From contig JBCBZD010000002.1 of assembly GCA_039815485.1 (NCBI GenBank), positions 269,933 to 333,932 on the forward strand: DNA of 64,000 bases, in the 5' to 3' direction. The notes under the pieces are model-generated. The model was not told the origin of the DNA. It did no database searches and saw nothing but the letters and a program-made list of their open reading frames with translations. This document shows, piece by piece, positions 12,963 through 55,125 of this stretch (its first letter is position 1; each line of letters opens with the position of its first letter). Source of the DNA: Pseudomonadota bacterium. GTDB lineage: Bacteria > Pseudomonadota > Alphaproteobacteria > Caulobacterales > Hyphomonadaceae. The translations under genes were made by a program, and so were the position numbers.

Positions 12963-15900
12963 ATGGCTAATTGGAAACTATATGGCGGTGTAGCGGCTGC
13001 GTCTCTGGCCACCGCGGCGCTCATTGCGCCGGCTCAGGCCCAGGTTACAACATCTAGCATTCGCGGTGCCGTTGCGAATGAGGATGGATCGCCGGTTGCA
13101 GGTGCAACAGCGATCATCACGCACACGCCATCTGGCACGGTCTCAACCGCTTTCACTAATGAAAGCGGTATTTTTTCATCACGCGGTCTGCGTGTTGGTG
13201 GCCCTTACACGGTTTCAATCAGCGGCGGTGAGTTTGCACCAAGAGAAATTACTGACATTTACATCGCGCTCGATGAAACCTTCCCTCTGAACATTGTGGT
13301 CCAGGGCGCGCGCACCATGGACACAGTTGTTGTGACCGCGTCTCAGACACAGTCAGGCTTTGCAAGCTCGGGCCTGTCGACAACACTCGGCATTGACGCC
13401 CTGAACGGCGTTGCGTCGATTGACCGCGACATCACAGACGCTGCCCAGCTCGACCCGTTCGCATCAGTCAACGTTCAGTCCGGCGGTTCGAAAGAGCTCT
13501 CGATTGCCGGTGCGAACAATCGCTTCAATTCTCTGACAGTTGATGGTGTTGCGCTGAATGACCGCTTCGGTCTGAACGCAAACGGCTTCCCGACACAGCG
13601 TTCACCGATCTCATTTGACGCGATCGAATCTCTGTCTGTTCAGGCTGCGCCGTTTGACGTTGAATTTAACGGCTTCACTGGCGGTAACGTCAATGCGGTG
13701 ACGAAATCCGGTACCAACGAATTCCATGGCTCAGTTTACTATTTCACAACTGACGATTCCATGGCTGGCGGCGATGGTGAGTTTGAAGAAGAAACCTACG
13801 GCTTCACGCTCGGCGGTCCAATCATCAAGGATAAGCTCTTCTTCTTCGCGTCATACGACAAATTCGAAGAAACTGCGCGTTTGAACACAGGCCCTGTCGG
13901 TTCAGGTGCGACGAACGAAATTGCCGGTTTCACACAAGCCGACGCAGACGAAATTCGCCAGACAGTTCTCGACACTTACGGCTTTGATGTTGGCGGCTTC
14001 GACAAGGCCCCTGTGGAAGACGAAAAAATTCTCGCGAATATCGACTGGAACATCACCAACGATCATCGTGCGAAGTTCACTTACCTCAGAACTGACGGTT
14101 CAAGCATTAATGAGCAGAACGGTAACAACTTTGTTCAGGGTGCTGATGTTGCCTTCTCATCATCATGGTATGAGCGTTCGGAAACCATTGAATCTTACAT
14201 TGGTCACTTGTTCTCAGACTGGACACCTAATTTCTCAACTGAGTTCAAAATTGCTTTCACTGAGCAGGCGACCGGCCAGAACAGCTTGAACGGCGCCGAA
14301 TTCTTCCTCGGTTCAGTACCAACTACAAGTAGCGGCGAGATCGTCGCCTTTGGTCCAGACCGCTTCCGTCACGGGAACGAGCTTGATCAGGAATTCTTCG
14401 ACCTGAAATTCAAGGCTGAATACATCGTAGGCGACCATACTCTGAAAGCAGGTTATGAGCGTCAGGAAATCGACGTAAACAACCTGTTTGCGCAGAACTC
14501 TGAAGGCACGTTCGGCTTCAGAAGTGTCGAAGAGCTTGGCAATGCACTCGCGTTTGAGATTGACTACGACAACGCGATCACCAATGACGAGAATGACCTG
14601 CGGGCGATCTGGGGTTTCAACATCAACTCGATCTACCTTCAGGACACATACGAATTCTTGCCGAACCTGACGTTTGACCTCGGTCTGCGCTATGACTGGT
14701 ACGAAACCGAAGGGGACATTCGTCAGAATGATAACTTCCAGGAGCGTAATGGCTTCTCCAACACTGGCGACGTCGATGGGCTGGATGTTATCTTGCCGCG
14801 CTTCTCATTCGATTATCAGGCAACCGATGATATTACAGTCCGCGGTGGATTTGGCCGCTTCTCCGGTGGTTCACCAGGTGTCTGGGTTTCAAACAACTAC
14901 TCGAATGACGGTGTGATCAATGATGACGCCGATGCTGAGTGGGATGGTTCCGATCCGGCAACTCTGCTTGCCGTTCCGACCACGCCAGACCCAGTAACCG
15001 GTCAGTGGGTTCCACAGGCGCAGCTTGATGCTCTGGCCAACACGGCGCCAAACGGTTCTGTGAACGCCCTCGACCCGGATTTCGACATTCCAACAACCTG
15101 GAAAGCGAACCTGGGTGTCGCGGTAAATGCCGACGTGCCGTATCTTGGCGATGACTGGTTGTTCAGCGCAGACGTGCTCTACAATAAGTTGGAAAATGCC
15201 AATTACTGGTATCTCGCTTCATGTGAGGATCCGGTTGATGTCGCGCCGGATGGCCGCGGTGTCTATGATTGTGGCTTCCCTGAAGATCTCGTCCTCGGCA
15301 GCGTCGATAAAGGACACTCGCTCCTTTGGGCTGTCTCCGCGAACAAAGAATGGGAAACAGGGTTTGGTGATTTCGACCTGTTCACCAGCTATACCTATGC
15401 TGACGTTGAGGATATCGGCTACGGCACGTCTTCAACAGCGACCTCAAACTACTCTGACTCTGCACGGTTTGATCTGCAGCAGCCACGGACCGGCACGTCG
15501 AACTTCCAGGTTGAGCATCTCTTCAAGCTCCGTCTGGACTGGGAAAAGGCCTTCTTCGGCGACTACGCAACACGGGCAACTCTGTTCGGTGAGCGTCGCA
15601 CAGGACAGCCATACAGCTACACCTTCTCAGAGAACAACGCATGTGTGTTCGATGTTGGCGGCGGTCGCTGTGCCCGTGAGAGCCGTGTCGATGATGCCGG
15701 TCACCTGCTTTACGTTCCATCAGGTCCAAACGATCCGCTATTCTCAGCTGACTCATTCGGCGGCGATGCGGCTGAACAGCAGGCTTTCTTCGACTATATC
15801 AACAGTTCTGAGCTGTCTCAGTATGCAGGCGGTATCGCAGAGCGCAATGGCGACAACTCACGCTGGTCAACAGTTGTAGATCTGCGTCTGCAGCAGGAAT

Positions 15901-16151
15901 TGCCAGGCTTCCTTGAGAGCCACCGGACCTTCCTGTTCGTCGACGTTGAGAACCTGGGCAACCTGATCGACGAAGACTGGGGCCGTGTCGAGCGGACCCG
16001 CTACGAGTATGAGCGCGATGTTGTTTCTGCGGAAATCGTTGACGGCCAGTTCGTCTATGACAACCTGCAGGACCCGGACAGCATCAACAATATCGAAGTT
16101 CTGAACCAGTCTTTCTGGCAGATCCAGCTCGGTGTTAAGTACGAATTCTAA
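12963..16151 (+). CDS. TonB-dependent receptor with N-terminal carboxypeptidase-regulatory-like domain (Oar type)
   Basis: Signal peptide, plug motifs (NSLTVDG, NAVTKSGTN), C-terminal QLGVKYEF. Confidence 0.93.
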   Translation: MANWKLYGGVAAASLATAALIAPAQAQVTTSSIRGAVANEDGSPVAGATAIITHTPSGTVSTAFTNESGIFSSRGLRVGGPYTVSISGGEFAPREITDIYIALDETFPLNIVVQGARTMDTVVVTASQTQSGFASSGLSTTLGIDALNGVASIDRDITDAAQLDPFASVNVQSGGSKELSIAGANNRFNSLTVDGVALNDRFGLNANGFPTQRSPISFDAIESLSVQAAPFDVEFNGFTGGNVNAVTKSGTNEFHGSVYYFTTDDSMAGGDGEFEEETYGFTLGGPIIKDKLFFFASYDKFEETARLNTGPVGSGATNEIAGFTQADADEIRQTVLDTYGFDVGGFDKAPVEDEKILANIDWNITNDHRAKFTYLRTDGSSINEQNGNNFVQGADVAFSSSWYERSETIESYIGHLFSDWTPNFSTEFKIAFTEQATGQNSLNGAEFFLGSVPTTSSGEIVAFGPDRFRHGNELDQEFFDLKFKAEYIVGDHTLKAGYERQEIDVNNLFAQNSEGTFGFRSVEELGNALAFEIDYDNAITNDENDLRAIWGFNINSIYLQDTYEFLPNLTFDLGLRYDWYETEGDIRQNDNFQERNGFSNTGDVDGLDVILPRFSFDYQATDDITVRGGFGRFSGGSPGVWVSNNYSNDGVINDDADAEWDGSDPATLLAVPTTPDPVTGQWVPQAQLDALANTAPNGSVNALDPDFDIPTTWKANLGVAVNADVPYLGDDWLFSADVLYNKLENANYWYLASCEDPVDVAPDGRGVYDCGFPEDLVLGSVDKGHSLLWAVSANKEWETGFGDFDLFTSYTYADVEDIGYGTSSTATSNYSDSARFDLQQPRTGTSNFQVEHLFKLRLDWEKAFFGDYATRATLFGERRTGQPYSYTFSENNACVFDVGGGRCARESRVDDAGHLLYVPSGPNDPLFSADSFGGDAAEQQAFFDYINSSELSQYAGGIAERNGDNSRWSTVVDLRLQQELPGFLESHRTFLFVDVENLGNLIDEDWGRVERTRYEYERDVVSAEIVDGQFVYDNLQDPDSINNIEVLNQSFWQIQLGVKYEF

Positions 16152-22105: not shown

Positions 22106-24388
22106 CTAATCCACACCGTCCATATAAGCAGGCAGCCAGCCCTCATTCGCCTCGCGCAGGCGGGAGAGGGGGAGGCGCACCGATCCATCTCTTTCGCTAT
22201 CGACTTGGCTAACGATTTCATCGCTGTCAAAGTTGCCAAGGGCCGTGACGCCCACTCCGGTTTTCTCCGCAATGTTCCCTACCGCGTCCATGAAAGTGGC
22301 GCTCGCGTTGACCGCTAAGAGATATCGACCCTGGTCTTCACCGAACAGGAATTCCGGCAAGGACTCTTCACCCTGAAAGCCGAACTCAAACCCTAGGTTG
22401 CTTACAAGGCTCAACTCCAAGGCCGAGCAAAGCACTCCACCATCGCTGACATCATGCACAGCGTTGACCAGCCCCTGCTCAATCAAGCTTCGAACAAAAT
22501 CCGCATTCCGCTTCTCGACTTCCAAGTCTACTGGCGGCGGCGGCCCGGCGTCTTCTCCATCAAGACCCCAGATTTCCCGCGCATAAAGCGAGGCGCCGAG
22601 ATGCCCTTTGGTCTCCCCAATCAGGATCAGAGCATCCCCCGGCTGCGCGCCCTTCAGAGTCGAGATCTTGGAGACATCCTCGATCAAGCCAACACCGCCG
22701 CAGACCGGCGTCGGCGGAATGGCGATGCCGTCGGTCTCATTATAGAGGCTGACATTGCCCGACACGACCGGGAAATCGAGCTCCCGGCACGCCTCGGCCA
22801 TGCCTTCAATCGCCTTGACGATATAGCCCATCGTCTCTGGCTTCTCCGGGTTCCCAAAATTCAGATTATCGGTGATCGCAATCGGTTTCGCGCCCACTGC
22901 AGACAAGTTGCGATAGGCCTCCGCTACGGCCTGCTTACCGCCCTCATAAGGATCAGCGGCGACGTAGCGCGGCGTGCAATCAGACGTAATCGCCAGCGCT
23001 TTATTGGTGCCGTGAATACGCACGATGGCTGCATTGCCCATACTCTGTGAGCTATCAACCGTGTCGCCCATCACATGGCGATCATACTGCTCCCAGATCC
23101 AGCGCTTGGATGCCATGTCAGGGCAAGACATGAGCTTTAAGAGCACTTCGCCATAATCTTCCGGCTCGGGATATTTGGAGATGTCCAGCGGCGCGCGCTT
23201 TGGCGGCTCGACCCAAGGCCGATCATAGTTCGGCGCATCTTCGGCGAGCGGTGCCACCGGAATATCGCAAACTGTCTCGCCGTGTTGGAGCAGCTGCAGA
23301 TGGCCGGTATCGGTTGTCTCACCAATCACTTCCGCGTCGAGATCATACTTGTCAAAAATCTGTTTCGCGAGGTCGATCTTGTCCGGGTAGAGCACCATGA
23401 GCATGCGTTCTTGCGACTCCGACAACATGATCTCATAGGCGGTCATGCCGGTCTCGCGCTGGGGCACTTTGTCCAGATCCATGCGTACGCCGATTCCTTC
23501 GCCATTCGCGCCGCCGCTATCGGCCATCTCAACCGAAGACGAGGTGAGGCCTGCCGCGCCCATATCCTGAATGGCCTGGATCGCATCGGTCGCCATCAGT
23601 TCCAAACAGGCTTCGATGAGCAGTTTCTCAGTGAACGGATCGCCGACCTGAACCGTCGGGCGTTTTTCCTCGTCGCCTTCACTAAACTCGGCGGAGGCCA
23701 TGGTCGCGCCATGAATGCCATCGCGCCCGGTCTTGGAGCCGACATAGAAGATCGGATTGCCCGGCGTCGCCCCGCGCGCATAAAAAATCTTGTCCTGATC
23801 GGCGAGGCCAACGGCCATCGCATTGACCAGAATATTGCCATTATAGCCTTTGTGGAACTCGGTCTCGCCCGCTACAGTTGGGACGCCCACACAGTTTCCA
23901 TACCCGCCAATCCCGGCAACGACACCGGCGACGAGACTACGTGTCTTCTCATGGGCAGGGTCCCCGAAACGCAGCGCATTGACCAGCGCAATTGGGCGCG
24001 CGCCCATCGTAAAAACATCGCGCAGGATGCCCCCGACGCCGGTCGCAGCGCCTTGATATGGCTCAATGTAAGACGGGTGGTTGTGGCTCTCCATTTTGAA
24101 GATTGCCGCCTGCCCGTCGCCAATATCAATCACGCCCGCATTTTCGCCAGGGCCCTGGATGACACGGTCATTCTTGGTGGGGAATTTGGACAGATGCCGA
24201 CGCGACGATTTGTACGAGCAATGCTCCGACCACATCACCGAATAGATGCCAAGCTCGACCAGATTGGGATCACGCCCAAGCCGGGTCACCAGCCGCTCCC
24301 ACTCCTCGGTATTGATGCCGTGTTCAGCGGCATCTCGCTCAGTTTGCAGGGCCTGCATGGCGGCGATGATGTCAGATGCGTTGGTCAT
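22106..24388 (-). CDS. purL: Phosphoribosylformylglycinamidine synthase subunit PurL
   Basis: [23 protein letters not shown] and DMGAAG motifs. Confidence 0.97.
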
Positions 24389-24467: not shown

Positions 24468-24476
24468 TTATCCACA
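24468..24476 (+). promoter_or_regulatory. DnaA box in the purL/hicA divergent intergenic region
   Basis: Perfect TTATCCACA; function unproven. Confidence 0.4.
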
Positions 24477-31768: not shown

Positions 31769-33364
31769 CTAGTCGCAGATCGATTGCTCGGTCGCAAAGG
31801 ACGGGTCGAACACCGATCGCGGGTCCAGAACCCAGTGCGGGTGTCCCGTTGTCAGTCGCTTGAACTGTCCGGAGCGTTCGTGCGGCAAGGAATACGGATG
31901 ATCGAACAGGCAACGAATATCATTGGTGATCGAAACCGACTGGGCATAGGTTGTGTGCTTGACCTTGAAGAAGAAACTCTTCGGGGCCGCTTTCGTTACA
32001 TCGATCGTTTTTACAAACTGACGGCCGAGATAATCGGGCATATCAAACACCGCCGGACCACCGCCTTTGTAGAAACCGATCCGGCTCTTGACGTCGGAAT
32101 CCTTGTTGGAGCCAAAGAAGTTCATACGGCTCGACAGGTTGCGCAATGCGCCGCTGAACCCCACAGCAGCATCGCTTTGTGAGGTATAGATCGTGACACC
32201 GTCATAGATCGGTGCAGCTGCGCCCATCCATTCTGCAAACAGGTTGGAGTCGAGATCTCCCGCCGCAAAGATCACATGACCAAACTTCTTCTCGCGGCTG
32301 AAATCGCTCAACCGCGCCAGCGCCTGAGCGGTCACCCGCGTCCCCATGGAGTGGGCGATAATATGCAATTTCATGGGGCGGTCTGCGGTGCTGACGGTCT
32401 CATGTGTCAGGCGTAGAAACCGCGCCAATGCGTCGACACTCAGATCAGCATCTTCCTGATCGTTCAGATAATCCAGCAGGTTGCCATTCGAGGGCCATGA
32501 GAAAAAGAACGCCGGGCCATCCACCTCCATGTCATATTTTAACTGCGCTGTACGGAACGCGGCGTTTCGGAACGGAACATTGAACCCGTGGATGAATACA
32601 AAAGCATGTTCGGAGTCCGGATCGGAGGTCGCGATGACTTCATGGATGCGGTTTGCAAACCCTTCCGGATCGCGGTCATAGGACCAGTGATCCAGCAGCG
32701 CGAAATACTTCTTCAGGTCCCGGTCGCGCAATGTGGCGCCGCTGCTGGCCGCCTTGAACGCGCCGCCGCCTTTGGCCAGTTTTTCTCGCCTTGAATCCGG
32801 TATGCTGACCATCACTTCGCCCAGGTGACAGACCCGCGTACTGGACGCAGTTTGGGAATAATCATACGGGCTGGGCTCGCAATTCGCGCGCGGTTCGGGG
32901 CGAATACTGAACAGATCGCCTTTGTCGGTGACCCGGCCTCTCTCTATCGTTTTGGAATTGATCGCATCTGCCTCGCCTTCGATGGCGGTCCGGTTGGTGC
33001 CGTAAAAAACAGAGACACATGTAATCCACTCATCCCCGCTGCGCGCGCCTTCCGCAGCAATACGCTCACACTCGCTTGCCTCGCGTACCGGAAGCTCCAT
33101 CGCCATAACCTCAACCGGGACGGGTGCGGGTGCCGGCATACTGAGGCTACGGGTGGGCGGTGGCGGAGGGGCATCCTCCGCCATCGGTTCTGGCGGTGGG
33201 GGCGGCGGAGGCGGAGGAGGAGGTGGTGGTGGCGGCTCGGGCGGTGTCTCAGATTGCTCTATGACAACCGGCTCCGGCTGTGTTTCATCGCCCACAGGTT
33301 CGTCTGTCACTGTCGCACAGCTGACCAATATTGAGGCCAGAATAATAGTCGAAAATCTACGCAT
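31769..33364 (-). CDS. DUF900-type alpha/beta-hydrolase lipoprotein
   Basis: Lipobox LVSC; VFYGTNR, FIHGFN, FSWPS and nucleophile elbow AHSMG. Start placed at MRRFS. Confidence 0.8.
   Translation of the reverse strand: MRRFSTIILASILVSCATVTDEPVGDETQPEPVVIEQSETPPEPPPPPPPPPPPPPPPEPMAEDAPPPPPTRSLSMPAPAPVPVEVMAMELPVREASECERIAAEGARSGDEWITCVSVFYGTNRTAIEGEADAINSKTIERGRVTDKGDLFSIRPEPRANCEPSPYDYSQTASSTRVCHLGEVMVSIPDSRREKLAKGGGAFKAASSGATLRDRDLKKYFALLDHWSYDRDPEGFANRIHEVIATSDPDSEHAFVFIHGFNVPFRNAAFRTAQLKYDMEVDGPAFFFSWPSNGNLLDYLNDQEDADLSVDALARFLRLTHETVSTADRPMKLHIIAHSMGTRVTAQALARLSDFSREKKFGHVIFAAGDLDSNLFAEWMGAAAPIYDGVTIYTSQSDAAVGFSGALRNLSSRMNFFGSNKDSDVKSRIGFYKGGGPAVFDMPDYLGRQFVKTIDVTKAAPKSFFFKVKHTTYAQSVSITNDIRCLFDHPYSLPHERSGQFKRLTTGHPHWVLDPRSVFDPSFATEQSICD
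33191..33235 (-). repeat. 15 consecutive proline codons
   Basis: ccg cca cca cca cct cct cct ccg cct ccg ccg ccc cca ccg cca. Confidence 0.9.
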
Positions 33365-33420
33365 GGATGTCCCTCCAAAGCCGACGTTTCTCGCAGCTTT
33401 CAAGGACCGTAGCAGGAAAC

Positions 33421-35287: not shown

Positions 35288-36118
35288 TTAACTCTTGAGC
35301 TTATAGCCTGATTTCAGCATCCACCAGACCCCCGCAGACGTCGCCAGTGCGCACAGCCCGGTCACGATATAGCCGGTCATCAGGTCTGAATTGGCCGCGC
35401 CAAGAAAGCCATAGCGGAACCCATCGATCAGATAGAAGATCGGATCAAAATGAGCGAGCGTGATAAACGGCTCGACCAGAACATTGATGTCGTAGAACGT
35501 GCCCGACAGGAAGGTTAGGGGCACGATCACAAAATTACTTACCGCTGCCAGATGATCAAACTTGTCCGCCCAGATGCCGCCCATCGCGCCAATCGCGGCG
35601 AGTGAGATCGTCGCCATCAGGCCAAACCATATCACCGGGAAAAGATGATCCACGCTCAGGCTGGCAAGCCCGCTGAAATGAATGCCGATGGCGGAGATCG
35701 CGCCAACCATCAGCCCGCGCGTCACCGCTCCAAAGATAAAGCCGGTCGCAAGCTCAACCGCGGACAAAGGCGGCATTAGAAAATCCACCTGACTGCCCTG
35801 AACTTTCGCAATCGTCAGAGAGCTGGACGAGTTCTGGAACGCGTTTTGTAGCATCGCCATCACGATCAGGCCGGGCGCAAGGAAGTCATTATAGTTGAGG
35901 CCGTTAAAGTCGCCGGTCAGCTCCCCGCGATTGCCAAAGGCCAGTTTGAACACGGTCATGAAGAGCAGGGTTGAAACCACCGGCGCAAGCAGCGTCTGCA
36001 TCCAGACCTTCAGGAACCGGCCAACCTCACGCTTGTACAACGTCCAGAGGCCCAGCCAGTTAAAGGCGCCATAGCTGCGGGGTTTCGGGGGCGAGAGCTG
36101 CGTCGATGTATCAGGCAT
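35288..36118 (-). CDS. ABC-2 type transporter permease (YadH-like)
   Basis: LYKREVGRF, FLAPGLI and PLTFLSGTFY motifs. Confidence 0.9.
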   Translation of the reverse strand: MPDTSTQLSPPKPRSYGAFNWLGLWTLYKREVGRFLKVWMQTLLAPVVSTLLFMTVFKLAFGNRGELTGDFNGLNYNDFLAPGLIVMAMLQNAFQNSSSSLTIAKVQGSQVDFLMPPLSAVELATGFIFGAVTRGLMVGAISAIGIHFSGLASLSVDHLFPVIWFGLMATISLAAIGAMGGIWADKFDHLAAVSNFVIVPLTFLSGTFYDINVLVEPFITLAHFDPIFYLIDGFRYGFLGAANSDLMTGYIVTGLCALATSAGVWWMLKSGYKLKS

Positions 36119-36165
36119 AACCGGCCTTGTAGGCCCAGATTCACCGTTTGGCGATAGGCCTTACT

Positions 36166-36174
36166 TTATCCACA
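36166..36174 (+). promoter_or_regulatory. DnaA box upstream of gcrA
   Basis: Perfect TTATCCACA. DnaA activation of gcrA is established in Caulobacter. Confidence 0.7.
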
Positions 36175-36178
36175 GTTC

Positions 36179-36299
36179 CTACTATATATTGATTGCTTGT
36201 GGATTGCCGGTATCAGCATCTTGTGCTTCATTTCGTTGCTGATACGATATATAGCGTTAGAGCGGGGCTGATGGGCATTCCTGCATCAAGATATAGGGG
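36179..36299. promoter_or_regulatory. Four NrdR-box-like palindromes upstream of gcrA
   Basis: Cores CTATATATTG (36182), CAGCATCTTG (36214), CGATATATAG (36245) and CAAGATATAG (36287); spacings 32, 31 and 42 bp. Confidence 0.6.
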
Positions 36300-36322: not shown

Positions 36323-36847
36323 ATGGCTTGGACAGAAGATCGCGTCGAGGTTTTGAAAAAACTTTGGGCTGAAGGGCATTCAGCCAGTCAGATCGCAAAA
36401 GAACTCGGCGGCGTCACACGCAACGCCGTGATTGGTAAAGTACATCGCCTTGGTCTGTCAGGCCGGGCAACACCTTCACGTCCTGTCAAGCGGCCACCGC
36501 GGCTGGCCCGGCCAAAGCCACGGGTGCAACCAGATGGCAGTGTCGTCACGCCGCGTCCAGCGGCGCCCACGGTCGATGCGCAAGTGAAAAAAGTCGAGAA
36601 GGCGGTGATGGCCACCTTGCCACCTCAGCCGCTGGCTGATGGTGAGGCTGCCACCATTCTCACGCTGCGCGACAGCATGTGCAAATGGCCAATCGGTGAC
36701 CCGGCTGATCCAAAATTCGCTTTTTGTGGCCGTAAGGCTACGTGCGGTCCTTACTGCGCTGAGCATGCCAAGGTTGCGTTCCAGCCAACCAAGAAGCGCG
36801 AGCGCAAGAAGTCTGAATACGACTATGTCCGCAAGATTGCGGGCTAG
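36323..36847 (+). CDS. gcrA: Cell-cycle regulator GcrA
   Basis: MAWTEDRVEVLKKLWAEGHSASQIA...TRNAVIGKVHRLGL; CKWPIGDP and YCAEH motifs. Confidence 0.96.
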   Translation: MAWTEDRVEVLKKLWAEGHSASQIAKELGGVTRNAVIGKVHRLGLSGRATPSRPVKRPPRLARPKPRVQPDGSVVTPRPAAPTVDAQVKKVEKAVMATLPPQPLADGEAATILTLRDSMCKWPIGDPADPKFAFCGRKATCGPYCAEHAKVAFQPTKKRERKKSEYDYVRKIAG

Positions 36848-48661: not shown

Positions 48662-48770
48662 TGTGGATAATCCGAATCGCTTGAATCACCCATTTGAATC
48701 CAATCATTCCCATGTTATCCCATAATCTAACAAGCTGAGCCCAAATGGGTTCTGCCGGGGCATGATGGGA
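48662..48770. promoter_or_regulatory. dcw promoter: DnaA box, three GANTC sites and MraZ repeat arrays
   Basis: TGTGGATAA at 48662-48670; GAATC at 48674, 48683 and 48696; TGG(G/A)N at 10-bp period four times on minus (48688-48722) and three times on plus (48746-48770). Confidence 0.7.
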
Positions 48771-53681: not shown

Positions 53682-55125
53682 TCCGCTCTGGACCTCCGCA
53701 GAAATCGCAACGGCAACACGAGGCACCGTAACGGCTGACTTCGACGTGACCGGTCTTTCGATCGACACGCGCAGCCTGGAGCCGGGCGATCTGTTCGTGG
53801 CCCTGAAAGACGTGCGCGACGGACATGAGTTTGCCAGCAACGCCTTCAAAGCCGGGGCCAGCGGCGCGCTGGTCAGCCGCGAGGTTGAGGGCAGCCCGGT
53901 TGTGCAGGTTGATGACGTGCTTCCGGCGCTTGAGGCGATGGGGCTGAACGCCCGGGACCGGGCAGAGGACTGCTACCGCGTCGCGGTCACAGGCTCTGTT
54001 GGAAAAACCAGCGTGAAGGAAATGATGGCGCGGATGTTTCGCGCCCTTGGCCCGGCGCACTGGAACGTCAAAAGCTTCAACAATCACTGGGGTGTGCCAC
54101 TGACGCTGGCTCGCATGCCGCGCGAGACGAAACGCGCTGTGTTCGAAATTGGCATGAACACCCCCGGCGAGATCGCCCCGCGCAGCGCTATGGTTCAGCC
54201 GCATGCCGCTATGGTCACCAAGATTGCCCCAGCCCACCTCGAAGGGCTTGGCAGCATTGAGGGCGTCGCCCGCGAGAAAGCAGACATTTTTACTGGTCTG
54301 CAACCGGGTGGGGCGGCCATTCTCCCGCTGGATGACGATTTTGCCCCGCTTTTGTCAGACCGTGCGAAGGCGCTGCAGCCGGACTGCCGTATTCTGACCT
54401 TCGGGGTTGGCCCGGGCCCGGATGCTTCTGTGGTTGAAACCAGCAGCAATGGCCGAACGACAACCTGTCTCATCAGCGTGCACGGACGCGAGGTCTCGTT
54501 CACTTTGAACGCGGTTGGCGACCACTGGGCGCTCAATGCGGCGGCTGCACTGCTTGCGGTCTGCCCGGACGGCCCAGAGCACGTTGGCGCTGCAGCGAAC
54601 GCGCTCGACGGCTATGCGCCGCCCCCGGGACGCGGCACGACCGAAACACTGGCGCTACCCGGCGGCGGAGAGATCACGCTGATCGATGACGCCTATAATG
54701 CCAATCCGGAAAGCATGCGCGCGGCGCTCTCTGGCTTTGCGACCCGGCCCTGTACAGGACGCCGGATTGTTGCCCTTGGTGAGATGCTGGAAGTTGGGCC
54801 AACCTCCGAGGCCGAGCACGCTGCCCTTGCGGAACCGATTCTGTCTGCCGGGGCGGATATCGTCTTCCTTGCAGGGCAGGGTATGCAGCCTCTTGTGGAT
54901 AAGCTCCGTGAACGAACAGAGTCCAAATGGGCCGTCAAGGCGCAAGAGCTGGAATCTGAGCTAAAATTCACGGTTAAAAGCGGTGATGTCCTGTTGCTAA
55001 AAGGGTCGAATGCCTCCGGAATGGGACAGCTCGCAGACCGCCTGCGCCAATGGAGTGCAGCGGCAGACGAGACACTGATGGCAAGCGGTGCAGAACGCGC
55101 TGCGAGGGGTAAAAATGTTGTATGA
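53674..55125 (+). CDS. murF: UDP-MurNAc-pentapeptide synthetase
   Basis: [22 protein letters not shown] and KGS motifs. Start placed at MPDPLW. Confidence 0.95.

What the first reader, a model, noticed from the sequence alone, without database searches (positions are those of the whole stretch)
36166..36299. Helically phased NrdR-box array plus a DnaA box upstream of gcrA: possible dNTP-pool control of the S-phase regulator
Seen: four 10-bp cores at 36182 (CTATATATTG), 36214 (CAGCATCTTG), 36245 (CGATATATAG) and 36287 (CAAGATATAG), spaced 32, 31 and 42 bp, with a perfect DnaA box just upstream. Known: the NrdR box consensus is acaCwAtATaTwGtgt, tandem boxes sit an integer number of helical turns apart, and NrdR is the ATP/dATP-sensing repressor of ribonucleotide reductase genes. 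Caulobacter gcrA is known to be controlled by DnaA and CtrA. Inference: NrdR may gate gcrA (or the divergent ABC permease), linking nucleotide supply to cell-cycle entry. I am not aware of this link being described. The second core is degenerate (3 mismatches).
Basis: partly seen in the sequence, partly recalled or inferred. Interest (0 to 1): 0.75.

Follow-up and report, generated by a model that had tools for sequence, protein, structure and literature searches.

The report
NrdR operator array on gcrA promoter
The promoter of the cell-cycle regulator gene gcrA carries four helically phased binding boxes for NrdR, the dATP/ATP-sensing repressor of ribonucleotide reductase, interleaved with DnaA boxes and conserved across many alphaproteobacteria, which suggests an undescribed link between DNA-precursor supply and the bacterial cell cycle.

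Summary
A weight matrix built only from ten experimentally validated E. coli and Streptomyces NrdR boxes ranks boxes 1, 3 and 4 first, second and fifth of 63,985 window positions. The three best box pairs at NrdR-compatible spacings all lie here.

All four boxes meet the published binding rules: C4 and G13 are 8 bp apart, AT content between them is at least 63%, and the linkers are 16, 15 and 26 bp. Box 2 has G instead of A6.

In 80 species-level gcrA loci, 51 carry a qualifying box pair within 300 bp upstream of gcrA. None occurs in the other 462 kb. Spacings cluster at 31/32, 41/42, 62 and 104 bp.

Among nine Hyphomonadaceae, the invariant columns in boxes 1, 3 and 4 are exactly the NrdR-critical positions.

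By homology to the mapped Caulobacter gcrA start site, box 2 carries the -35, box 3 the -10 and start site, and box 4 lies in the 5' UTR. Box 1 sits between two DnaA boxes.

The most likely reading is NrdR repression of gcrA when dATP is high. No binding or expression data exist, and this genome's own nrdR and nrd promoters could not be retrieved. I found no published NrdR-gcrA link.

The parts
36166..36174 (+). Perfect DnaA box TTATCCACA, 4 bp upstream of box 1
   Evidence: Sequence; one of four perfect 9-mers in the window. Conserved as (T/C)TATCCACA or NTCCACA in the close Hyphomonadaceae relatives, but not across the wider set (7 of 43 arrays).
36179..36194 (.). NrdR box 1, CTACTATATATTGATT. 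Has C4, A6, A8, T9, T11 and G13; 100% AT between C4 and G13.
   Evidence: 13.6 bits, rank 1 of 63,985; 16.0 bits, rank 1 with the alphaproteobacterial nrdJ matrix. A3, C4, A6, A8, T9, T11 and G13 are invariant in 9 Hyphomonadaceae.
36198..36206 (-). Inverted DnaA-like box (TGTGGATTG on the + strand; 7 of 9 matches to the reverse complement of TTATCCACA), 3 bp after box 1
   Evidence: TGTGGA is invariant in 9 relatives. TGTGGA lies 1-4 bp after the distal box in 30 of 43 arrays, against a background of 0.26 per kb. It is homologous in position to the DnaA motif GTCCACA at -53 of the C. crescentus gcrA start site.
36211..36226 (.). NrdR box 2, TATCAGCATCTTGTGC. Weak: G at position 6, 63% AT between C4 and G13. 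Its right half doubles as the -35.
   Evidence: 4.1 bits, rank 106. It sits 32 bp from box 1 and 31 bp from box 3. C4, A8, T9, T11, T12, G13, T14 and G15 are invariant in 9 relatives. Published mutagenesis shows A6G in both boxes of a pair lowers affinity 4-10 fold but does not abolish binding.
36221..36226 (+). Inferred -35 hexamer TTGTGC
   Evidence: Homologous TTGTGT lies at -35..-30 of the mapped C. crescentus-type promoter. TTGTG is invariant in relatives. A 16-bp spacer separates it from TACGAT. Inferred by homology, not mapped in this organism.
36242..36257 (.). NrdR box 3, ATACGATATATAGCGT. All six critical positions present; 88% AT between C4 and G13. Covers the inferred -10 and transcription start.
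   Evidence: 13.3 bits, rank 2. GATACGA-AT-TAG is invariant in 9 relatives. The homologous box spans -14..+2 of the C. crescentus-type promoter.
36243..36248 (+). Inferred -10 hexamer TACGAT; predicted transcription start near 36256
   Evidence: In C. crescentus the CtrA half-site motif TTAACGCATTCTTTA ends at -12 of the mapped start site 2470342. In the collinear Caulobacter loci this places TACGAT at -13..-8. Inferred for the window. The E. coli-type consensus scan found no sigma-70 promoter.
36284..36299 (.). NrdR box 4, CATCAAGATATAGGGG. All six critical positions present; 88% AT between C4 and G13. Lies in the inferred 5' UTR, about +29..+44.
   Evidence: 10.6 bits, rank 5; 12.9 bits, rank 4 with the nrdJ matrix. 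It is 42 bp from box 3 (26-bp linker), and this is the best pair in the window at 23.9 bits. C-A-AT-T-GGG is invariant in 9 relatives.
36323..36847 (+). gcrA coding sequence (174 aa), the regulated gene
   Evidence: Pfam PF07750 GcrA, 166.7 bits, E = 6.7e-49. 87-89% identical to GcrA of Henriciella-like genomes.
35288..36118 (-). Divergent ABC-2 type permease gene. A syntenic neighbour, probably not the target.
   Evidence: Pfam ABC2_membrane, 95.2 bits. Divergent neighbour in 57 of 80 loci. The boxes persist without it, and their distance to it is more variable. In C. crescentus its start site lies 128 bp upstream of the gcrA start site and is not cell-cycle regulated.

Best explanation
The 204-bp gcrA promoter region carries a four-box operator for NrdR, the zinc-ribbon/ATP-cone repressor of ribonucleotide reductase genes, interleaved with DnaA boxes.

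**Shown here.** All four 16-bp boxes obey the experimentally defined NrdR rules. They are separated by linkers of 16, 15 and 26 bp, which are the two linker classes NrdR tolerates. The array is conserved upstream of gcrA, in register, in dozens of alphaproteobacterial species, and the NrdR-critical bases are the ones that stay invariant.

**Inferred by homology to the mapped Caulobacter gcrA start site.** Box 2 contains the -35 (TTGTGC). Box 3 contains the -10 (TACGAT) and the start site. Box 4 lies at about +29..+44. Box 1 is sandwiched between two DnaA boxes.

**Inferred mechanism.** When dATP is high relative to ATP, NrdR tetramers bind box pairs. Each tetramer bridges two boxes; the strongest pair is 3+4, and 1+2 and/or 2+3 are also possible. 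Binding kinks the DNA, occludes RNA polymerase at the -35, -10 and start site, and probably hinders the activator DnaA at the flanking boxes, so gcrA stays off. When the dATP pool falls, as when replication starts to consume dNTPs, NrdR shifts to non-binding oligomers and DnaA-activated transcription of gcrA proceeds.

gcrA is thus wired like an RNR gene and would be co-induced with RNR at S-phase entry.
For: **Motif identity**
- The matrix from 10 validated boxes ranks boxes 1, 3 and 4 at 1, 2 and 5 of 63,985 positions.
- The matrix from 28 alphaproteobacterial nrdJ-promoter boxes ranks them 1, 3 and 4, with scores above the training median.
- Published rules are met: C4 and G13 critical and 8 bp apart; A6 and T11 important; at least 63% AT between C4 and G13; two boxes required; linker 15-16 or 24-27 bp.
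- NrdR proteins and boxes are interchangeable between phyla, so a universal matrix is legitimate.

**Conservation**
- Sites of at least 7 bits occur at 8.4 per kb in the 300 bp upstream of gcrA, against 0.32 per kb elsewhere.
- 78, 58, 42 and 17 of 80 loci have at least 1, 2, 3 and 4 sites.
- Adjacent spacings peak at 31 (29 cases), 32 (12), 41 (9), 42 (23), 62 (12) and 104 (7).
- The bare pattern C.A.AT.T.G occurs at 6.8 against 0.17 per kb, with the same distance peaks.
- 51 of 80 loci have a qualifying pair upstream of gcrA; none occurs in the other 462 kb.
- A MAFFT alignment of 9 Hyphomonadaceae leaves C4, A6, A8, T9, T11 and G13 invariant in boxes 1, 3 and 4, while positions 5, 7, 10 and 12 vary.

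**Promoter overlap**
- The C. crescentus gcrA start site, CtrA half-site (-26..-12) and DnaA motifs (-53, -75) come and are aligned to the Caulobacter loci.

**Precedents**
- Multi-box arrays and long linkers exist at RNR promoters, and boxes there overlap the RNA-polymerase site.
- The E. coli nrdAB promoter has DnaA boxes followed by three boxes spaced 32 and 31 bp and is DnaA-activated and NrdR-repressed.
- NrdR binds DNA as a tetramer with dATP plus ATP, and not with ATP alone (abstracts).

**Positive control**
- The best box pairs upstream of alphaproteobacterial nrdJ genes are mostly 31 bp apart (12 of 25).

**Consistent but not specific**
- C. crescentus has nrdR (CC_1358), and its deletion gives a cell-cycle-related motility phenotype.
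- C. crescentus nrdB and gcrA start sites both peak in early S phase and both carry DnaA motifs.
Against: - There is no binding, ChIP or expression evidence for NrdR at gcrA in any organism.
- nrdR and the nrd genes of this organism are not in the window. Its other contigs could not be reached, so neither the presence of NrdR nor this genome's own nrd-promoter motif was checked.
- The transcription start is inferred from Caulobacter, not mapped here. No RNA runs exist for this organism, and the E. coli-type promoter scan finds nothing.
- Part of the conservation of boxes 2 and 3 is explained by their being the -35 and -10.
- Box 2 is weak (4.1 bits), and in Caulobacteraceae its left half is degenerate.
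- RegPrecise-based reconstructions of the NrdR regulon in 50 alphaproteobacteria did not report gcrA.
- The C. crescentus nrdR deletion mutant is viable with a mild phenotype. The nrdR fssC double mutant is additive, so the dNTP effect on G1-S entry is not exerted through NrdR alone.
Confidence: 0.72

Rival explanations
1. The boxes are a real, conserved operator but are bound by a different, so far unassigned alphaproteobacterial regulator or nucleoid protein whose specificity resembles the NrdR box.
For: No protein-DNA data exist. The C. crescentus promoter literature assigns only DnaA and CtrA to gcrA. Regulon reconstructions did not call gcrA an NrdR target. Some distal boxes in Caulobacteraceae (AATCAA-N4-TTG) also fit the IHF consensus, recalled from my own knowledge, against the sequences.
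Against: The conserved positions are exactly the six NrdR-critical ones. The spacings are exactly the two linker classes measured for NrdR. None of the motifs I know for alphaproteobacterial cell-cycle or stress regulators (CtrA, SciP, DnaA, GcrA/GANTC, LexA, Fur/Irr, MraZ) fits; this rests on my own knowledge. The IHF-like match holds only for a minority of boxes.
Confidence: 0.12
2. The AT-rich cores are only core-promoter and DNA-bending elements of gcrA (-35, -10, start-site region, possibly a second promoter), and their likeness to NrdR boxes is incidental.
For: Box 2 contains the inferred -35, and box 3 the inferred -10 and start site. Box 3 (TACGATATCT-GT-G) is the most widely conserved element, present even where only one box is seen.
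Against: Box 1 (-76..-61 in Caulobacter coordinates) and box 4 (about +28..+43) are not at any mapped start site. C. crescentus has a single gcrA start site, and the divergent permease start site lies 52-67 bp away from box 1. C4 of box 2 and T11 and G13 of box 3 are invariant although they lie outside the hexamers. The same C-A-AT-T-G pattern recurs three to four times in helical phase.
Confidence: 0.08
3. The array regulates the divergent ABC-2 permease / ABC-F ATPase operon rather than gcrA.
For: The permease is the divergent neighbour in 57 of 80 loci, including C. crescentus, so the intergenic region is shared.
Against: At least two strong boxes remain upstream of gcrA in 9 of 22 loci without that neighbour, including Asticcacaulis with 3-4 boxes. 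The proximal box keeps a tight distance to the gcrA start codon (interquartile range 38-58 bp), whereas the distance from the distal box to the permease start is looser (104-172 bp). The boxes overlap the gcrA core promoter, not the permease one, and the permease start site is not cell-cycle regulated in C. crescentus.
Confidence: 0.05
4. Chance clustering of AT-rich decamers in an AT-rich intergenic region.
For: The region is 46% GC against about 58% for the window, which raises the chance rate of AT-rich motifs.
Against: Simulations with the region's own composition give P of about 2e-4 to 3e-4. The array is conserved in register in 51 of 80 species, with no pair elsewhere in 462 kb.
Confidence: 0.01

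Closest known systems
E. coli nrdAB promoter (DnaA boxes plus NrdR boxes)
   Same: DnaA 9-mers (TTATCCACA, TTATGCACT) lie immediately upstream of three NrdR-type boxes spaced 32 and 31 bp, one of which covers the -10 and start site. The promoter is DnaA-activated and NrdR-repressed. The window has the same 32/31 spacing for boxes 1-2-3 and the same DnaA-box adjacency.
   Different: The regulated gene is a transcription regulator (gcrA), not an RNR. There is a fourth box one extra helical turn away. Box 1 is bracketed by two inverted DnaA boxes. In E. coli the box over the -10 (box 0) does not bind NrdR because it has C at position 6, whereas box 3 here is a full-consensus box.
Multi-box NrdR operators at RNR promoters (L. 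monocytogenes nrdAB, four boxes; S. pneumoniae nrdHEF, three boxes with 24-26 bp linkers; T. maritima nrdJ, three boxes)
   Same: They have more than two boxes, linkers of 15-16 or 24-27 bp, and boxes overlapping the RNA-polymerase site.
   Different: All are upstream of RNR operons. None is combined with DnaA boxes in the descriptions I read. Here both short and long linkers occur in one array.
P. aeruginosa topA, the one experimentally supported non-RNR NrdR target
   Same: It is a replication-related gene outside the RNR family carrying an NrdR box; mutation of the box and nrdR deletion change its expression.
   Different: topA has a single box and NrdR acts as an activator there. gcrA has a 3-4 box array in a repressor-like position over the core promoter, and it is conserved across families rather than in one genus.
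C. crescentus gcrA promoter as described (DnaA-activated, CtrA-repressed)
   Same: The promoter is homologous. The conserved TGTGGA after box 1 corresponds to the DnaA motif at -53. The start site, -10 and -35 are collinear.
   Different: The published description contains no NrdR input. The window lacks the CtrA half-site TTAAC in the spacer and has an extra perfect DnaA box upstream.

Membership tests
NrdR-box operator | 16-bp partly palindromic box with C4 and G13 exactly 8 bp apart (critical for binding) | tested here: met
   All four boxes have C4 and G13 with 8 bp between them. Criterion from the mutagenesis.
NrdR-box operator | A6 and T11 present; A8 and T9 usual | tested here: met
   Boxes 1, 3 and 4 have all four. 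Box 2 has G6 but T11, A8 and T9. A6G in both boxes of a pair lowers affinity 4-10 fold without abolishing binding.
NrdR-box operator | At least 63% A+T between C4 and G13 (needed for the DNA kink) | tested here: met
   100%, 63%, 88% and 88% for boxes 1-4, counted. Threshold.
NrdR-box operator | At least two boxes, with a linker of 15-16 bp or 24-27 bp (centres an integer number of helical turns apart) | tested here: met
   Linkers are 16, 15 and 26 bp. Rule. The same spacings dominate in 80 gcrA loci.
NrdR-box operator | Boxes overlap or adjoin the RNA-polymerase binding site | tested here: met
   Met by homology only. The mapped C. crescentus start site, aligned to Caulobacter loci and the window, puts box 2 on the -35 and box 3 on the -10 and start site. 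Not mapped in this organism.
NrdR-box operator | The same motif and spacing stand upstream of nrd genes in the same lineage | tested here: inconclusive
   Met for alphaproteobacterial (Rhodobacterales-like) nrdJ loci from metagenomes: 12 of 25 best pairs are 31 bp apart, and the matrix from them ranks the window boxes 1, 3 and 4. The nrd promoters of this genome, or of any Caulobacterales or Hyphomonadaceae, could not be fetched.
NrdR-box operator | An nrdR gene is present in the genome | not testable with these tools
   No NrdR-like ORF (N-terminal M.CP.C motif scan) and no NrdA/NrdB/NrdR tblastn hit in the 64-kb window. The rest of the genome is not available. From the literature, nrdR exists in C. 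crescentus (CC_1358), in all 50 alphaproteobacteria of the regulon study and in 77% of bacterial genomes.
NrdR-box operator | Specific binding of NrdR loaded with dATP plus ATP | not testable with these tools
   Needs EMSA, MST or ChIP.
Canonical NrdR regulon (RNR operons) | The regulated operon encodes a ribonucleotide reductase or an accessory protein | tested here: not met
   The downstream gene is gcrA (Pfam PF07750). No nrd gene is in the window or in the 80 gcrA loci. So this is not filed as a canonical regulon member but as a new target; topA in Pseudomonas is the precedent.
DnaA box | 9-mer TTATCCACA or a close variant, conserved in position | tested here: met
   Perfect box at 36166-36174. 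Inverted 7-of-9 box at 36198-36206, whose TGTGGA core is invariant in relatives and adjacent to the distal box in 30 of 43 arrays. It corresponds to the annotated C. crescentus DnaA motif at -53.

The most novel reading that the evidence does not exclude
NrdR is an ancient, unrecognised input to the alphaproteobacterial cell-cycle circuit. dATP/ATP-loaded NrdR and the activator DnaA act antagonistically at interdigitated sites on the gcrA promoter. The S-phase master regulator is then made only once replication has started to drain the dNTP pool, or when precursors are limiting. This would be a metabolic checkpoint conserved from Hyphomonadaceae to Caulobacter and, in reduced form, to Hyphomicrobiales.
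Probability: 0.45. Interest if true: 0.85.

Novelty: new member of a known kind. Interest (0 to 1): 0.74.

Why it matters
The Caulobacter-type cell cycle is driven by DnaA, GcrA, CtrA, SciP and CcrM. How the state of the DNA-precursor pool feeds into that circuit is open. A recent study shows that elevated dNTPs delay the swarmer-to-stalked transition and that an nrdR deletion has a related phenotype, without a transcriptional link.

A conserved NrdR operator sitting on the core promoter of gcrA would provide such a link. It would also make gcrA only the second non-RNR gene with strong evidence of NrdR control, and the first that is a global regulator.

The idea is directly testable in C. crescentus. 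The nrdR deletion strain, gcrA promoter-lacZ fusions and synchronisable cultures already exist.

It also changes how decades of gcrA promoter data should be read. The weak 'DnaA motif' ATCAACA at -75 in C. crescentus lies inside the distal NrdR-type box.

Tried and rejected
- **De novo EM motif discovery** on the 79 upstream regions converged from arbitrary seeds on ACACAATATATAGTG-like motifs. It blended registers because of the ATATAT periodicity, so I did not use its matrix.
- **Reference nrd promoters.** No nrd or nrdR gene is in the window or the 80 gcrA loci. tblastn of E. coli NrdA on plasmids gave no usable alphaproteobacterial class I genes. A Cupriavidus NrdJ seed led to plasmid or chromid nrdJ genes of Rhodobacterales, Azospirillum and Novosphingobium, only some of which have boxes. 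The metagenome scan with their alignment returned 80 mostly Rhodobacterales-like nrdJ loci, about a third with clear box pairs. No Caulobacterales or Hyphomonadaceae nrd locus was obtained. I ran no further search on a lookup that could not be aimed at a taxon.
- **Start-site evidence for this organism.** Only marine metagenome DNA runs hold the sequence, and there is no RNA.
- **Promoter scan.** The E. coli-type sigma-70 scan found no promoter; the alphaproteobacterial -35/-10 were assigned by homology instead.
- **Other features.** Rfam has no RNA family in the region. The 9-nt inverted repeat 36210-18 / 36237-45 is not conserved.
- **Literature not held.** McGrath 2007 and Torrents 2007 were unavailable. 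Rodionov & Gelfand 2005 is not open access, so I could not check whether its text mentions an alphaproteobacterial non-RNR target.
- **Hydroxyurea plus gcrA** search found nothing relevant.
Full report
**What is there.** The window comes from a Henriciella-like member of the Hyphomonadaceae. Its GcrA is 87-89% identical to GcrA of Henriciella-like metagenome genomes, and only marine metagenome runs hold the sequence. gcrA (36323..36847, +; Pfam GcrA 166.7 bits) is divergent from an ABC-2 permease gene (35288..36118, -).

These are four 10-bp cores at 36182, 36214, 36245 and 36287, spaced 32, 31 and 42 bp, and a perfect DnaA box at 36166-36174. Extended to 16 bp the boxes are:

| Box | Coordinates | Sequence |
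|---|---|---|
| 1 | 36179-36194 | CTACTATATATTGATT |
| 2 | 36211-36226 | TATCAGCATCTTGTGC |
| 3 | 36242-36257 | ATACGATATATAGCGT |
| 4 | 36284-36299 | CATCAAGATATAGGGG |

**More than chance.**
- The degenerate core with at most one mismatch occurs three times in 64 kb, all here.
- I built a weight matrix only from the ten E. coli and S. coelicolor boxes whose binding was measured (Table 1 of PMC13584703). Boxes 1, 3 and 4 rank 1st, 2nd and 5th of 63,985 positions; box 2 ranks 106th.
- The three best pair scores in the window at spacings of 30-33 or 40-43 bp are the pairs 3+4, 1+2 and 2+3. The next best unrelated pair scores less than half of the top one.
- Simulating the region with its own first-order composition gives P of about 3e-4 for three sites of at least 10 bits, and about 2e-4 for the best pair.

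**Do the boxes meet what is known to be required for NrdR?** Recent mutagenesis defines the rules:
- A6 and T11 are important.
- A8 and T9 are usual but dispensable if at least 63% of the bases between C4 and G13 are A or T.
- One box alone does not bind.
- The linker must be 15-16 bp (14-18 tolerated) or one helical turn more (24-27 bp).
- NrdR proteins from different phyla bind each other's sites.

All four boxes have C4 and G13 at the right distance. Boxes 1, 3 and 4 have all six conserved positions, and box 2 has G at position 6. AT contents between C4 and G13 are 100, 63, 88 and 88%. The linkers are 16, 15 and 26 bp.

**Comparative evidence.** A scan of one genome per species returned 80 gcrA loci from Hyphomonadaceae, Maricaulaceae, Caulobacteraceae, Parvibaculaceae, Parvularculaceae and some Hyphomicrobiales.
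- With the literature matrix, sites of at least 7 bits occur at 8.4 per kb in the 300 bp upstream of gcrA and 0.32 per kb elsewhere in the same loci.
- 78 loci have at least one site, 58 at least two, 42 at least three and 17 four or more.
- Distances between neighbouring sites pile up at 31, 32, 41, 42, 62 and 104 bp. Without any matrix, the bare pattern C.A.AT.T.G gives the same picture.
- A qualifying pair (both at least 5 bits, sum at least 17, spacing 31/32/41/42) is present upstream of gcrA in 51 of 80 loci and nowhere in the remaining 462 kb.
- In a MAFFT alignment of the window with eight Hyphomonadaceae relatives, the invariant columns inside boxes 1, 3 and 4 are C4, A6, A8, T9, T11 and G13, plus A3 or flanking G. 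Positions 5, 7, 10 and 12 vary. In box 2, C4, A8, T9, T11, T12, G13, T14 and G15 are invariant. That is the known NrdR fingerprint.

**Positive control in the class.** I could not reach the nrd genes of this genome. Alphaproteobacterial nrdJ genes found on chromids seeded a metagenome scan that returned 80 mostly Rhodobacterales-like nrdJ loci. Where these have good box pairs, the spacing is predominantly 31 bp (12 of 25). A matrix made from 28 of those boxes ranks the window's boxes 1, 3 and 4 at 1st, 3rd and 4th, above the median of its own training sites. Box 2 equals the weakest training site.

**Position relative to the promoter.** For C. crescentus the gcrA start site is mapped at 2470342, with identical results by 5' RACE-seq and biochemically. 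A repressing CtrA half-site motif TTAACGCATTCTTTA ends at -12. DnaA motifs lie at -53 (GTCCACA, minus strand) and -75 (ATCAACA).

The Caulobacter loci in my set are collinear with these motifs. This puts TACGAT at -13..-8 and TTGTGT at -35..-30 with a 16-bp spacer. The third box then spans -14..+2, the degenerate second box ends at -30, the distal box spans -76..-61 (and contains the 'ATCAACA' motif), and the proximal box lies at about +28..+43.

The window has the same TTGTGC-N16-TACGAT (36221-26 and 36243-48), so the start is predicted near 36256. This step is inference by homology. No RNA data exist for the organism, and the E. coli-type scan sees no promoter.

Box 2 is therefore 'degenerate' because it doubles as the -35. 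The authors of the mutagenesis study invoke the same kind of compromise for RNR promoters.

**DnaA boxes.** The perfect box at 36166 is shared with the closest relatives only. The widely conserved element is an inverted TGTGGA 1-4 bp downstream of the distal box, found in 30 of 43 arrays and invariant. It lies at 36198-36203 here and is the homologue of the C. crescentus -53 DnaA motif. Box 1 is thus bracketed by DnaA sites.

**Which gene is controlled?** The permease is the divergent neighbour in 57 of 80 loci, and also in C. crescentus. The arrays persist where it is absent, for example in Asticcacaulis. The proximal box keeps a tighter distance to the gcrA start than the distal box does to the permease start. 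The boxes overlap the gcrA core promoter, and the C. crescentus permease start site is 128 bp away and not cell-cycle regulated. gcrA is the target.

**Mechanism proposed.** NrdR binds DNA as a tetramer bridging two boxes when loaded with dATP plus ATP, and forms non-binding oligomers with ATP alone. On this promoter, occupancy of boxes 3+4, and of 1+2 or 2+3, would block RNA polymerase and probably DnaA. A fall in dATP would release it.

gcrA would then be co-regulated with RNR genes by the same two factors, DnaA and NrdR, as at the E. coli nrdAB promoter. There DnaA boxes are followed by three boxes spaced 32 and 31 bp. C. crescentus nrdB and gcrA start sites both peak in early S phase and both carry DnaA motifs; this is consistent but not specific.

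**Novelty.**
- Only two papers in the library contain both 'NrdR' and 'GcrA', and neither connects them.
- The regulon tables for 186 proteobacterial NrdR regulons, which include 50 alphaproteobacteria and 4 Caulobacterales, list RNR genes, yfaE, trxA, topA and a few hypothetical genes, but not gcrA.
- The Caulobacter start-site atlas does not mention NrdR.
- A 2015 paper states that all genes then described as NrdR-regulated encoded RNRs, until topA.
- I could not read Rodionov & Gelfand 2005 or RegPrecise itself, so an earlier passing mention cannot be excluded.

**Limits.** Everything is sequence-based. The presence of nrdR in this genome, binding, and any effect on expression are untested. 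The start site is inferred. Part of the conservation of boxes 2 and 3 is owed to the promoter hexamers. The mild, additive phenotype of the C. crescentus nrdR deletion shows that any control of gcrA by NrdR is modulatory rather than essential.

Noticed in passing
window 13045-13060: A single strong NrdR-type box, TTACAACATCTAGCAT (12.9 bits, third best in the window), about 80 bp inside the 5' end of the 1062-aa ORF 12963..16151, which looks like a TonB-dependent receptor from its N-terminal sequence (not family-tested). It has no partner box at NrdR spacings.
   Followed up: partly
window 24468-24476, 48662-48670 (-), 54894-54902 (-): Three more perfect DnaA 9-mers, making four in 64 kb. With at most one mismatch there are 13 against 7.0 expected. 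The one at 24468 lies about 80 bp upstream of the ORF 22106..24388 on the - strand, which looks like a purine-synthesis (purL-type) gene from its N-terminal sequence (not family-tested). The one at 48662 lies just upstream of what looks, from ORF N-termini (not family-tested), like a cell-wall/division (dcw-type) gene cluster.
   Followed up: no
window 36210-36218 and 36237-36245: A perfect 9-nt inverted repeat, GTATCAGCA / TGCTGATAC, bridging the left parts of boxes 2 and 3. It is not conserved in relatives, so it is probably lineage-specific or chance.
   Followed up: partly
L035 and L040, about -168 from the gcrA ATG: In Caulobacter species the distal box is preceded by G, so a CcrM methylation site (GAATC or GATTC) overlaps C4 of the box. 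Methylation state could influence binding there. The window has no such overlap; its only GANTC in the region is at 36138.
   Followed up: no
L052, L058, L070 (Hyphomicrobiales/Rhizobium-like gcrA loci): Only two boxes, 51-52 bp apart (five helical turns, 35-36 bp linker), the proximal one being the TACGATATCT-GT-G element. Linkers of this length were not tested in the published binding series (12-27 bp).
   Followed up: no
window 36297-36299 and homologous positions in L001-L009: The GGG directly after G13 of box 4 is invariant in nine Hyphomonadaceae. NrdR does not need it: T14G changes nothing in vitro. Unexplained; it may be a 5' UTR feature.
   Followed up: no
window 33150-33300: A long proline run (PPPPPPPPPPPPPP) near the N-terminus of the 544-aa ORF 31769..33403 (-), which may be a lipoprotein (not tested). 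It is mirrored by a glycine-rich spurious ORF on the opposite strand.
   Followed up: no
window 36367-36385 (- strand): A terminator-like hairpin on the minus strand inside the 5' part of the gcrA coding sequence; 0.3 expected by chance in the region.
   Followed up: no
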